This document shows positions 57,955 through 58,477 of a stretch of 64,000 nt of DNA, piece by piece. The translations under genes were made by a program, and so were the position numbers. The notes below the pieces were generated by a model. It did no database searches, was not told the DNA's origin, and worked only from the letters and a program-made list of their open reading frames with translations. Each line of letters begins with the position of its first letter. Position 1 is the stretch's first letter. Origin of the DNA: Clostridia bacterium (GTDB lineage Bacteria > Bacillota > Clostridia > Oscillospirales > Ruminococcaceae); assembly GCA_021152595.1 (NCBI GenBank), contig JAGKVC010000001.1:7380-71379 (forward strand), given 5' to 3'.

Positions 57955-58173
57955 TTACATGCAGCCAAACTTTACAGAGTGTCTGTTGTTGACAAACTCA
58001 TAATAGCCGCCCCACTGCATGCCCTTCGCCTGGCAGAACAGAATCATAGCGGCAACGAGAGATACAGCAATCAGTGCCAGAATAATAACTGCAACAACCC
58101 ATTCTGCGATTTCATCAGCAGCAACTGCACAATTGGTGGTCTCAGCCAGCATAGTAGGTTTCTGATATTTCAT
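57955..58173 (-). CDS. Precursor-like peptide B (72 aa) with a YxxP leader motif, a central TM helix and 3 conserved Cys
   Basis: AAGGAGGA RBS 7 nt before the ATG. MKYQKPTMLAETTNCAVAADEIAEWVVAVIILALIAVSLVAAMILFCQAKGMQWGGYYEFVNNRHSVKFGCM. Confidence 0.7.
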   Translation of the reverse strand: MKYQKPTMLAETTNCAVAADEIAEWVVAVIILALIAVSLVAAMILFCQAKGMQWGGYYEFVNNRHSVKFGCM

Positions 58174-58258
58174 TTCTTTTTCCTCCTTAGAGAACAATTA
58201 TTGTTAAAATGTTATTTTGATTCGATTCAGGTGTTACATACCTTGACAAACTGCAATA

Positions 58259-58477
58259 TTAGATGCAGCCGATTTTCACTGCACGCCGGTTCTCAAGAAC
58301 CTCGTAATAACCGCCGAAGCTCATACCTTTGAACTCGCAGAACAAAAGCATGGCAGCGATAAGAGACAGAGCGATTGCAGCAAGCACGATAATTGCGACA
58401 ACATACCACACGATCTCATCTGCTTCGATTGCGCAATGATCGGATGCCTGAATCATTGTCGGTTTCTGATAAGCCAT
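58259..58477 (-). CDS. Precursor-like peptide A (72 aa), paralog of peptide B
   Basis: AGGAGG RBS 5 nt before the ATG. MAYQKPTMIQASDHCAIEADEIVWYVVAIIVLAAIALSLIAAMLLFCEFKGMSFGGYYEVLENRRAVKIGCI. It is identical to B at 43 of 72 positions (hand count). Confidence 0.7.
   Translation of the reverse strand: MAYQKPTMIQASDHCAIEADEIVWYVVAIIVLAAIALSLIAAMLLFCEFKGMSFGGYYEVLENRRAVKIGCI

What the first reader, a model, noticed from the sequence alone, without database searches (positions are those of the whole stretch)
57955..58477. Two paralogous 72-aa peptides with a lasso-like YxxP leader, a central TM helix and a conserved Cys triad
After trimming to the ATGs that sit 5-7 nt downstream of AGGAGG, both peptides are exactly 72 aa and identical at 43 of 72 positions (hand alignment, no gaps).

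Conserved blocks:
- M-x-YQKPTM at the N-terminus. The Y-x-x-P-x-(L/M) spacing matches the RRE-binding leader motif known from lasso peptides.
- Cys15-Ala followed by ADEI.
- A ~25-residue hydrophobic helix with conserved small residues (A28, A33, A36, S38, A41, A42).
- LFC47-x2-KGM-x2-GGYYE-x3-NR-x2-VK-x-GC71 at the C-terminus.

The C47-x23-C71 spacing, together with three extracytoplasmic CxxC proteins in the operon, suggests a disulfide-closed (or otherwise S-linked) 25-residue C-terminal loop. Two similar but non-identical copies are reminiscent of two-peptide bacteriocins, but that is inference only.
Basis: seen in the sequence. Interest (0 to 1): 0.75.

Follow-up and report, generated by a model that had tools for sequence, protein, structure and literature searches.

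The report
Two TMcin-type membrane-helix bacteriocin precursors
The two 72-residue peptides are divergent precursors of the recently described TMcin bacteriocins (a membrane helix plus a disulfide-pinned hairpin that forms pores), sitting in a complete TMcin gene cluster that also carries an unexplained sulfur/redox gene module.

Summary
Two minus-strand ORFs (58477-58259 and 58173-57955) encode 72-aa peptides that are 43/72 identical without gaps, each behind an AGGAGG.

They are not a new peptide type. They are remote members of the TmcA/TMcin RiPP family (Dickey et al. 2025; Nur et al. 2026). An HMM built only from 50 published TmcA sequences picks exactly these two among 936 window ORFs. 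AlphaFold2 gives a disordered leader, helix 20-49 and hairpin 54-71. Cys47 and Cys71 are invariant across 43 relatives and match the experimentally disulfide-bonded C25/C50 of TMcin-G1905. All core genes are present: tmcP (here RRE-fused), tmcB, tmcC and tmcE.

Cys15 is not conserved and lies in the predicted leader, so there is no Cys triad. The YxxP motif occurs only where TmcP carries an RRE (12 versus 6 lineages, none discordant). The TMcin papers read here do not mention this.

A second copy is not required: the sister lineage has one.

One thing is new. A thioredoxin-CcdA-like protein, a 110-aa protein and a NifS-like cysteine desulfurase recur in the Roseburia TMcin cluster and nowhere else among 72,556 plasmids.

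The parts
58259..58477 (-). tmcA1 (pepA), a 72-aa TMcin precursor. Predicted leader is residues 1-22 (MAYQKPTM...ADEI). The predicted 50-aa core starts at V23 and carries W2, C25 and C49 in core numbering.
   Evidence: The published-TmcA HMM scores it E=3.8e-8 among 936 window ORFs. AF2 gives helix 20-49 and hairpin 54-61/64-71. The cleavage site is inferred from TMcin-G1905 N45|A46-W.
57955..58173 (-). tmcA2 (pepB), a 72-aa paralog that is 60% identical to pepA. Predicted core is AEWVV...FGCM (50 aa).
   Evidence: (E=2.5e-6). It is present in all six related metagenome contigs.
58533..59387 (-). tmcP, the leader peptidase. It has an N-terminal RRE (PqqD-like) domain fused to a 4-TMH DUF3267/site-2-protease-clan zincin, with H180ETTH and N262xxPxxGD269G.
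   Evidence: Pfam PqqD 7e-7, DUF3267 0.017, M50 0.12. The family profile against PDB hits mjS2P 3B4R at 1.5e-5, PqqD 3G2B at 3e-4 and lasso RRE TbiB1 at 0.008. BLASTP to the C. perfringens pJIR3844 'PqqD family protein' gives 1.8e-11.
56842..57597 (-). tmcB, the ABC transporter ATPase.
   Evidence: Pfam ABC_tran 1.9e-25. It is 46% identical to C. perfringens TmcB (1.8e-79) and 31% identical to S. epidermidis pHOB2 TmcB (1e-39).
55398..56885 (-). tmcC, a 495-aa multi-TMH permease. By homology it extracts the peptide from the membrane and secretes it.
   Evidence: It has no Pfam hit. Jackhmmer finds homologs next to tmcB in the loci of the RRE-bearing branch. BLASTP to the Peribacillus permease gives 2.7e-19.
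55062..55358 (-). tmcE, a 98-aa 2-TMH escort protein.
   Evidence: BLASTP to S. epidermidis pHOB2 TmcE gives 7e-5. Jackhmmer reaches pHOB2 TmcE (1.6e-26) and the small 2-TMH proteins of L007, L014, L016, L035 and L038.
54568..55065 (-). A membrane-anchored Thioredoxin_4 (DsbA-like) CxxC protein, the functional counterpart of TmcD.
   Evidence: Pfam Thioredoxin_4 6.6e-10. BLASTP to the C. perfringens BGC thioredoxin gives 7e-9 and to the Paraclostridium one 6.6e-10.
54138..54584 (-). A second membrane-anchored Trx-fold CxxC protein of the glutaredoxin-like / PedC-like type.
   Evidence: Pfam Glrx-like 1.6e-6 and Thioredoxin 3.8e-4. Jackhmmer links it to the PedC-like proteins of L011, L014 and L028.
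53607..54128 (-). A 173-aa membrane protein that has only the Cys-rich N-terminal domain of prepilin peptidases. Its role is unknown.
   Evidence: Pfam A24_N_bact 1.8e-6. It is conserved at the same position in the L007/L008 cluster.
59409..60560 (-). A NifS/IscS-type cysteine desulfurase (accessory). The PLP-binding Lys (SSHK) and the catalytic Cys (GSAC) are present.
   Evidence: Pfam Aminotran_5 3.7e-74 and NCBIfam NifS 2e-139, the latter below the equivalog cutoff. It is 46% identical (1.9e-123) to the cysteine desulfurase inside the Roseburia sp. 831b TMcin cluster.
60586..60918 (-). A 110-aa protein of unknown family with a conserved EPCI motif (accessory). It may be a sulfur acceptor; this is inference.
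   Evidence: No Pfam or NCBIfam hit. Its only homolog in 72,556 plasmids is the 108-aa gene in the Roseburia TMcin cluster.
60929..62119 (-). A 396-aa protein with a signal anchor, a thioredoxin CxxC domain and a CcdA/DsbD-like multi-TMH domain (NPC and EFLC motifs) (accessory).
   Evidence: The profile hits thioredoxin 3HZ4 at 7e-4. The Roseburia homolog (36.5%, 1.7e-62) has Pfam Thioredoxin 3e-10 and DsbD_2 1.7e-4, the latter below cutoff. Its only plasmid homolog is in the Roseburia TMcin cluster.

Best explanation
The two peptides are TmcA precursors of a TMcin (transmembrane-helix-containing bacteriocin), and the surrounding 12-gene minus-strand operon is a TMcin biosynthetic cluster.

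The mechanism below is taken by homology from S. aureus TMcin-G1905 and is not shown here.
1. Each 72-aa precursor inserts into the producer's membrane through its helix.
2. The cytoplasmic RRE domain fused to TmcP binds the N-terminal Y-x-x-P-x-hydrophobic leader motif (inferred).
3. The intramembrane zincin TmcP, helped by the 2-TMH escort TmcE, cuts one residue before the conserved Trp (predicted I22|V23 in pepA and I22|A23 in pepB). This releases a 50-residue core.
4. Outside the membrane, the anchored Trx-fold CxxC proteins oxidise Cys47-Cys71. This pins a two-stranded beta-hairpin to the top of the helix.
5. The TmcBC ABC transporter pulls the helix out of the membrane and secretes the peptide.
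6. The secreted peptide inserts into target Gram-positive membranes and oligomerises into a beta-barrel pore ringed by the helices.

The two copies look like a lineage-specific tandem duplication (inferred). The thioredoxin-CcdA-like protein, the 110-aa protein and the cysteine desulfurase form an accessory module that recurs in other gut-anaerobe TMcin clusters. It most likely serves the cysteine chemistry, but how is not known.
For: Family membership:
- An HMM built only from 50 published TmcAs finds just these two ORFs among 936 in the window (E=3.8e-8 and 2.5e-6, next best 0.67). It aligns the Trp, both Cys and the F-x-G motif.
- A profile seeded from the window peptides retrieves P0043, which is identical to published TmcA WP_035432869, and a close relative of C. 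perfringens WP_015060571.

Structure and conserved residues:
- C47 and C71 are the only invariant residues across 43 relatives.
- AF2 gives a disordered leader, helix 20-49 (pLDDT about 90) and hairpin 54-61/64-71. This is the published TMcin architecture.
- Core numbering reproduces W2 and C25 of TMcin-G1905 exactly.

Core genes are all homologous to published ones:
- tmcB at 1e-39 and 1.8e-79, tmcE at 7e-5 by BLASTP and 1.6e-26 by jackhmmer, tmcP at 1.8e-11, with 3B4R as the top PDB hit.
- Every related locus long enough to judge carries a recognisable tmcP gene and tmcB next to the peptide(s), and all but Roseburia L038, where an IS110 element interrupts the cluster, show the tmcC permease. 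tmcP is frameshifted in L032 and L034 and apparently truncated in L039.

Experimental basis for each step in the homologous system is in PMC12328743 and PMC13252029.
Against: - The window peptides are remote members. Pairwise BLASTP to published TmcAs is only E=2e-5 to 0.08. The 28.7-bit HMM score would not be significant in a large database without the gene context.
- The second 'highly conserved' Trp, just before the first Cys, is Phe here.
- Nothing about expression, cleavage, disulfide formation, secretion or activity has been measured for this cluster.
- The charge distribution of the window peptides (acidic N-terminal side, net positive C-terminal side) does not by itself favour the N-in/C-out topology that the model needs.
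- No immunity gene has been identified.
Confidence: 0.87

Rival explanations
1. This is a two-component TMcin. pepA and pepB are both needed and co-assemble into a hetero-oligomeric pore, in the manner of class IIb two-peptide bacteriocins.
For: - Both copies, each with its own RBS, are kept in all six related contigs.
- The cores differ at 20 of 50 positions.
- A separate high-GC clade always carries two clearly different TmcA types in tandem, and other loci carry three copies.
Against: - The sister cluster (L007, L008, L024), with the same 11 other genes, has a single tmcA.
- The characterised TMcin-G1905 cluster has a single structural gene, and its purified product is bactericidal.
- There is no double-glycine leader and no peptidase-containing ABC transporter.
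Confidence: 0.2
2. This is a sulfur-modified TMcin. The cysteine desulfurase, the 110-aa protein and the Trx-CcdA-like protein install sulfane sulfur on the conserved Cys pair, giving a persulfide or trisulfide bridge. Alternatively they deliver persulfide-derived oxidising equivalents that make the disulfide in an anaerobe lacking a quinone-coupled DsbB.
For: - The three genes are in the operon, 10-25 nt apart, and inside the low-GC island.
- They are conserved in the L007/L008/L024 lineage.
- They are also in the Roseburia sp. 831b TMcin cluster, whose TmcA/TmcP branch is different and lacks an RRE.
- Among 72,556 plasmids, the only homologs of the 396-aa and 110-aa proteins lie in that Roseburia cluster.
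- The catalytic Lys and Cys of the desulfurase are intact in both copies, and the 110-aa protein keeps an EPCI motif.
Against: - No chemistry has been tested.
- Most TMcin clusters lack the module.
- The CcdA/DsbD assignment rests on motifs and a sub-threshold Pfam hit. CcdA normally carries reducing, not oxidising, equivalents outward.
- Only three lineages carry the module.
Confidence: 0.2
3. The peptides are not secreted toxins. They are small membrane-resident proteins whose cleavage by the site-2-type protease is a signalling event (regulated intramembrane proteolysis), with the ABC transporter serving another role.
For: - Site-2 proteases classically act in signalling (established knowledge).
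- Several related loci have sigma-70/ECF-like or response-regulator genes next to them.
Against: - A direct homolog is experimentally secreted, bactericidal and pore-forming.
- The released leader is short, variable and unstructured.
- The invariant part is the extracytoplasmic hairpin with its two Cys.
Confidence: 0.04
4. This is a lasso-type or daptide-type RiPP. The YxxP leader and RRE would indicate macrolactam threading or C-terminal amine chemistry.
For: - The leader motif matches the [Y/W]xxPx[L/V/I/F/A] motif bound by lasso RREs.
- RRE-site-2-protease fusions with several hydrophobic helical precursors define daptide clusters.
Against: - There is no lasso cyclase and no transglutaminase-like protease.
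- There is no daptide oxidative decarboxylase, aminotransferase or methyltransferase.
- The C-termini are Ile and Met, not the invariant Thr of daptides.
- The predicted P2 residue is Glu, not Thr.
Confidence: 0.01

Closest known systems
TMcin family (TmcA/TMcin-G1905, S. aureus pCT545): Dickey et al., Nat Commun 2025 (PMC12328743); Nur, Antwi and Dickey, bioRxiv 2026 (PMC13252029)
   Same: - The precursor has a leader, one transmembrane helix and a C-terminal beta-hairpin closed by two universally conserved Cys.
- The spacing from Trp2 to Cys25 in the core is identical.
- The same five core genes are present: tmcA, tmcB, tmcC, tmcE and tmcP.
- A DsbA-like gene sits in the cluster.
   Different: - This is a remote sequence branch (WYVVA...FC-x2-KGM-x-F-G-G...GC-x). 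The second conserved Trp is replaced by Phe.
- The leader is 22 aa rather than 45.
- TmcP carries an N-terminal RRE domain and the leader carries YxxP. Neither feature is mentioned in the two papers (0 occurrences of RRE or PqqD).
- There are two tmcA copies.
- There are three Trx-fold proteins plus a cysteine desulfurase, a 110-aa protein and an A24_N-like protein.
Daptides (MpaP/DapP RRE-site-2-protease leader peptidase): Ren et al. 2023
   Same: - An RRE is fused N-terminally to an intramembrane site-2-type protease.
- There are several hydrophobic helical precursors per cluster.
- The leader motif ends in Pro (ELExMEAP).
- ABC transporters are present.
   Different: - There is no invariant C-terminal Thr.
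- There is no DapB/C/D/M chemistry.
- The core ends in a disulfide hairpin.
Lasso peptide and LPP leader recognition (YxxPx[L/V/I/F/A] bound by PqqD-like RREs)
   Same: - The same short leader motif sits near the N-terminus.
- The family profile weakly matches the lasso RRE TbiB1 (E=0.008).
- The role of the motif in RRE binding has been shown for lasso and LPP systems.
   Different: - The RRE is fused to a zincin, not paired with a Cys protease or a signal-peptidase-like enzyme.
- There is no macrolactam cyclase.
- Met replaces the usual aliphatic residue at motif position 6 in the window peptides.
Bacteriocin clusters with dedicated disulfide machinery (pediocin PedC; sublancin BdbA/BdbB)
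   Same: The clusters encode Trx-fold oxidoreductases, including PedC-like domains in related loci and a Trx_4 plus DsbB pair in the Bacillus locus. They sit next to a Cys-containing bacteriocin gene. The pediocin and sublancin precedents come from my own knowledge.
   Different: The substrate is a membrane-embedded helix peptide rather than a soluble double-glycine or glycosylated bacteriocin.

Membership tests
TMcin (TmcA) RiPP family | [quoted passage not shown] | tested here: met
   The AF2 model built on a 43-sequence alignment has no regular structure over 1-19, helix 20-49 (pLDDT 89-96) and strands 54-61 and 64-71.
TMcin (TmcA) RiPP family | Two universally conserved cysteines bracket the loop (C25 and C50 of mature TMcin-G1905). 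| tested here: met
   C47 and C71 are invariant in the 23- and 43-sequence alignments. They align to the two Cys of the published-TmcA HMM. In predicted-core numbering they are C25 and C49. Actual disulfide formation was not tested.
TMcin (TmcA) RiPP family | Detectable sequence homology to published TmcA proteins. | tested here: met
   An HMM from 50 published TmcAs scores the two peptides at E=3.8e-8 and 2.5e-6 among 936 window ORFs. The reciprocal profile search returns published members.
TMcin (TmcA) RiPP family | Two highly conserved Trp residues flank the helix. | tested here: inconclusive
   The N-terminal Trp is present (W24 in pepA; W25 in pepB, shifted by one). The Trp just before the first Cys is Phe in both peptides and Phe or Tyr in the nearest relatives.
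TMcin (TmcA) RiPP family | An adjacent tmcP gene encoding a DUF3267 / site-2-protease-clan HExxH...D intramembrane zincin. | tested here: met
   The motifs H180ETTH and NxxPxxGD269G are present. Pfam gives DUF3267 0.017 and M50 0.12, both sub-threshold. The family profile hits 3B4R at E=1.5e-5. This is the same top PDB hit reported for TmcP.
TMcin (TmcA) RiPP family | An adjacent tmcBC ABC transporter: an ATPase plus a roughly 480-500-aa 12-TMH permease. | tested here: met
TMcin (TmcA) RiPP family | A tmcE gene encoding a 2-TMH escort protein in the core operon. | tested here: met
   The window 98-aa protein matches pHOB2 TmcE at E=7e-5 by BLASTP and 1.6e-26 by jackhmmer.
TMcin (TmcA) RiPP family | The product is secreted, disulfide-bonded, bactericidal and forms oligomeric beta-barrel pores. 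| not testable with these tools
   This needs expression, mass spectrometry and activity assays.
Daptides | An invariant C-terminal Thr converted to an amine by DapB/C (oxidative decarboxylase), DapD (aminotransferase) and DapM (methyltransferase). | tested here: not met
   The C-termini are Ile and Met. None of these enzyme families is in the operon. The only PLP enzyme is a NifS-type desulfurase.
Daptides | An RRE domain fused to an intramembrane site-2 protease that acts as leader peptidase. | tested here: met
   This feature is shared but is not sufficient for membership.
Lasso peptides | A transglutaminase-like leader protease (B2) and an asparagine-synthetase-like cyclase (C), with Thr at -2 of the leader. 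| tested here: not met
   No such domains are present in the 12 genes. The predicted P2 residue is Glu21.
Class IIb two-peptide bacteriocins | Two different peptides are both required, with double-glycine leaders cut by a C39-peptidase ABC transporter. | tested here: not met
   There is no GG leader and no C39 domain on the ABC proteins. The sister lineage has one peptide. The requirement for both peptides cannot be tested here.

The most novel reading that the evidence does not exclude
TMcin clusters of strictly anaerobic gut Clostridia carry their own sulfur-driven disulfide-forming module. In this reading, a NifS-type cysteine desulfurase makes a persulfide and passes it to the 110-aa EPCI protein. 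The persulfide then serves as a two-electron oxidant that is relayed through the Trx-CcdA-like membrane protein to the extracytoplasmic Trx-fold proteins and finally to the Cys47/Cys71 pair of the membrane-embedded peptide. This would be an oxygen- and quinone-independent substitute for DsbB. Alternatively, the module could produce a trisulfide-bridged TMcin.

A second, more modest undescribed point: one branch of the TMcin family uses an RRE-fused TmcP that reads a lasso-type YxxP leader motif.
Probability: 0.15. Interest if true: 0.75.

Novelty: new member of a known kind. Interest (0 to 1): 0.4.

Why it matters
- TMcins were described only in 2025-2026, from staphylococci, with homologs collected by a 2021 PSI-BLAST. 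This locus extends the class to a remote sequence branch found on a low-GC island in a 57%-GC genome that recurs in several metagenome assemblies.
- It shows that leader recognition in part of the family is RRE/YxxP-based. That links TMcins mechanistically to the daptide and lasso leader logic.
- Many non-staphylococcal clusters do carry their own Trx-fold, DsbB or PedC-like genes. This runs contrary to the statement in the preprint.
- The recurrent cysteine-desulfurase / Trx-CcdA-like module gives a concrete, testable handle on how an anaerobe oxidises an extracytoplasmic cysteine pair.

Tried and rejected
- **Word-indexed protein searches.** Searches with pepA and with the RRE protease returned only themselves.
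- **The search for related loci.** With 3 sequences it found nothing in genome contigs.
- **My own error.** The second and last genome-contig scan used a pattern with two extra N. It was out of frame and gave one chance hit, L019. As a result no organism names were obtained from that collection, and the host of the window remains unidentified.
- **Corrected pattern.** It gave 12 metagenome loci and none in viral contigs.
- **tblastn against plasmids.** The window peptide and protease found nothing. Only the S. aureus TmcA query opened that collection.
- **Structure prediction of the protease.** I used a profile-versus-PDB search instead.
- **Peptide profile against PDB.** It gave only spurious TM-helix hits, so no TMcin structure appears to be deposited.
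- **Transcription signals around the peptide genes.** No promoter or terminator consensus was found. The 115 nt downstream of pepB fold no better than shuffles (z=-1.0).
- **Charge-based topology reasoning.** I considered it and dropped it as decisive. Experiments on the homolog place the leader on the protease side and the loop on the DsbA side.
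Full report
**1. Observation**

The region 57955-58477 holds two minus-strand ORFs. Trimmed to the ATGs at 58477 and 58173, each encodes 72 residues. They are 43/72 identical with no gaps (BLASTP E=1e-33). AGGAGG lies 5 nt upstream of the first ATG and 8 nt upstream of the second (read). 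The single-copy homolog in L007 has no in-frame Met upstream of the equivalent MKYEKPSM start, which supports the short starts.

The genes sit in a 12-gene co-directional operon (62119-53607). The operon lies on a low-GC island (about 0.40) that starts near 53.5 kb and runs to the window end, inside a 0.57-GC genome. The same island occurs in six public metagenome contigs.

**2. What the family looks like**

Word-based searches found only self. An exhaustive HMMER search with the two-peptide profile found 11 clusters. A degenerate DNA pattern and a 23-sequence profile enlarged this to more than 60 proteins of 62-119 residues. All of those that carry a name are annotated 'hypothetical' or 'uncharacterized membrane protein'. 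The named ones come from Bacillota, Actinomycetota and one Chloroflexota (Thermogemmatispora).

Across 23 relatives only C47, G51 and C71 are invariant, and across 43 only C47 and C71. The helix start (A/V)-W-(Y/F)-x-V is strongly conserved. Cys15 occurs only in the window lineage. The N-terminal 20-45 residues are otherwise variable.

**3. Context**

Every related locus long enough to judge carries the peptide(s) next to three things:
- an HExxH membrane protease gene, frameshifted in L032 and L034 and apparently truncated in L039;
- an ABC ATPase;
- a 480-520-aa permease, not seen in Roseburia L038, where an IS110 element interrupts the cluster.

This holds across. A small 2-TMH protein is also found in most loci.

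The protease family profile hits the M. jannaschii site-2 protease 3B4R (E=1.5e-5) over the HExxH...NxxPxxxDG region. It hits PqqD (3e-4) and lasso TbiB1 (0.008) over the N-terminal 90 residues. So 'RRE-M50' is right at clan level, although Pfam M50 and DUF3267 are individually sub-threshold.

**4. Identification**

A literature search led first to daptides, whose leader peptidase is also an RRE-site-2-protease fusion. It then led to the TMcin class.

TMcins are bacteriocins whose precursor (TmcA) and mature product contain a transmembrane helix followed by a two-stranded beta-hairpin. [quoted passage not shown] The roles of the core operon genes are:

| Gene | Role |
|---|---|
| tmcA | Precursor |
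| tmcB, tmcC | ABC extraction and secretion |
| tmcE | 2-TMH escort |
| tmcP | DUF3267 / S2P-clan leader peptidase; top PDB hit 3B4R |
| tmcD | DsbA-like; staphylococcal clusters only |

I tested membership directly.
- **Sequence.** An HMM built only from 50 TmcA sequences in the paper's source data finds exactly the two window peptides among 936 window ORFs. The scores are E=3.8e-8 and 2.5e-6, with the next best at 0.67. The alignment matches the Trp, both Cys and the F-x-G motif.
- **Reciprocal search.** My window-seeded profile had already retrieved P0043, which is identical to published WP_035432869.
- **Gene by gene.** Comparison with the S. epidermidis pHOB2 and C. perfringens pJIR3844 clusters shows homologous tmcB, tmcC, tmcE, tmcP and thioredoxin genes.
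- **Structure.** AlphaFold2 on a 43-sequence alignment gives an unstructured leader, helix 20-49 (pLDDT about 90) and hairpin 54-61/64-71 (pLDDT about 72-77). This is the published fold.
- **Cleavage site.** Counting from the published G1905 cleavage site (N45|A46-W) puts the window cleavage at I22|V23. The resulting 50-residue cores have W2 and C25 exactly as in TMcin-G1905, and the second Cys at 49 rather than 50.

The peptides are therefore new, remote members of a known family.

**5.

Right:
- the TM helix;
- the C47-C71 loop and its link to the extracytoplasmic CxxC proteins;
- the link to the protease;
- treating YxxP as an RRE motif.

Wrong or unsupported:
- The Cys 'triad'. C15 is lineage-specific and lies in the leader.
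- Any lasso relationship beyond the motif.
- The two-peptide idea. The sister cluster with the same 11 other genes has one tmcA.

**6. Points not in the TMcin papers as far as their text shows**

(a) *RRE and YxxP.* Neither paper contains 'RRE' or 'PqqD'. Yet TmcP is RRE-fused in the window, L007, L011, L014, L016, L025/27/28, L032, L033, L034, C. perfringens L037 and Paraclostridium L040. NCBI itself labels the last two 'PqqD family'. A truncated copy is present in Peribacillus L039.
- In all 12 of these lineages at least one TmcA begins with Y-x-x-P-x-hydrophobic.
- In the six lineages whose TmcP lacks an RRE, no leader has the motif. These are L022, L029/30, Glycomyces L035, S. epidermidis L036, Roseburia L038 and S. 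aureus G1905, the last per the paper (H68 of a protease of about 170 aa).
- There are no discordant cases. The lineages are not phylogenetically independent, so this is suggestive co-variation and not proof.
- The same motif is the experimentally defined RRE ligand in lasso and LPP leaders.

(b) *Disulfide genes outside staphylococci.* The preprint says tmcD is missing outside staphylococci. I find Trx_4/DsbA-like, PedC-like or DsbB genes inside the clusters of the window, L007, L011, L014, L025/28, Bacillus L033 (Trx_4 plus DsbB), C. perfringens and Paraclostridium. In L011 and L028 the TmcE-like domain is fused to the Trx domain.

(c) *The accessory module.* The first three genes of the window operon are a 396-aa Trx-plus-CcdA-like membrane protein, a 110-aa protein and a NifS-type cysteine desulfurase. 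They recur in the L007/L008/L024 lineage.
- At 36%, 35% and 46% identity they also recur in the Roseburia sp. 831b plasmid TMcin cluster.
- That cluster belongs to a different TmcA/TmcP branch.
- In 72,556 plasmids, the only homologs of the 396-aa and 110-aa proteins are those Roseburia genes.
- The module is thus specifically tied to TMcin clusters of gut anaerobes. That the window's own host is one is an inference from the metagenome-only sources of the related contigs; the host itself is unidentified.
- Its function is unknown. My favoured guess is a role in oxidising or otherwise modifying the Cys pair without oxygen. I mark this as inference, at 15-20%.

**7. Mechanism and confidence**

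By homology the steps are: membrane insertion of the 72-aa precursor; RRE-guided, TmcE-assisted intramembrane cleavage before the conserved Trp; extracytoplasmic disulfide formation; ABC-driven extraction and secretion; and pore formation in target membranes.

Shown here: family membership, domain content, conserved residues, predicted fold and gene co-occurrence. Inferred: every biochemical step for this particular cluster. Confidence that this is a TMcin cluster is 0.87.

**8. Verdict**

This is a real feature and was correctly spotted, but it belongs to a class published in 2025. Its residual interest lies in three things: the RRE/YxxP branch, the duplicated precursor, and the recurrent cysteine-desulfurase/redox module.

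Noticed in passing
window 46879-50940 (+): A 1353-aa ORF fuses a carbamoyl-phosphate synthase large subunit (CPSase L D1-D3, MGS) to a C-terminal DAP epimerase domain. It is followed by an LL-DAP-type aminotransferase and a DAP decarboxylase, which is an unusual CarB-DapF fusion.
   Followed up: no
window 53500-64000; L001/L002 versus L003/L006: The TMcin cluster sits on a low-GC island (0.35-0.44 versus 0.54-0.59) that abuts lysA. Strains differ upstream of the cluster. L001 and L002 carry extra HTH_20, Rce1-like (CAAX protease) and Peptidase_S15 genes that the window, L003 and L006 lack. A truncated LytTR-like ORF lies at 63515-63898.
   Followed up: partly
L022, L026, L029, L030, L031: A high-GC clade of the family always has two clearly different TmcA types in tandem: WYVVPLLVLLALG...C-x2-RG-x-HL...IGC and WYAVAAIVLFAL...C-x2-KG-x-FGA...VGC(F/W). 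Their leaders are Arg-rich and lack YxxP, and their TmcP lacks an RRE. These are candidates for genuinely two-component TMcins.
   Followed up: partly
L011:3700-4392 and L028:3907-4623: A TmcE-like 2-TMH domain is fused to a PedC-like thioredoxin domain in one protein. This physically links the escort and the disulfide-forming function.
   Followed up: partly
L037:11237-11845 and L040:10278-10910: The C. perfringens pJIR3844 and Paraclostridium TMcin clusters carry a second, RRE-less DUF3267 protein downstream of the thioredoxin gene. It could be an immunity or second-protease candidate.
   Followed up: no
L032:10529-11418; L034:10633-11555; L039:8424-8660: tmcP is split by frameshifts in the Caenibacillus and Thermogemmatispora loci and appears truncated to an RRE fragment on the Peribacillus plasmid. 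These could be decaying clusters or assembly errors.
   Followed up: no
window 53607-54128 (-): The last gene of the operon encodes only the Cys-rich N-terminal domain of prepilin peptidases (CxxC...CC) plus TM helices, without the catalytic domain. It is conserved in the L007/L008 cluster, and its role is unknown.
   Followed up: no
Published TmcA list (PMC12328743 source data), Clostridium and Lachnospiraceae entries: Several anaerobe TmcA leaders contain extra cysteines at non-homologous positions: Y-L-C-P-K-I-D-C in Clostridium, V-E-C-N just before the predicted cut in Lachnospiraceae, and C15 in the window. No pattern linked to the desulfurase module was evident.
   Followed up: partly
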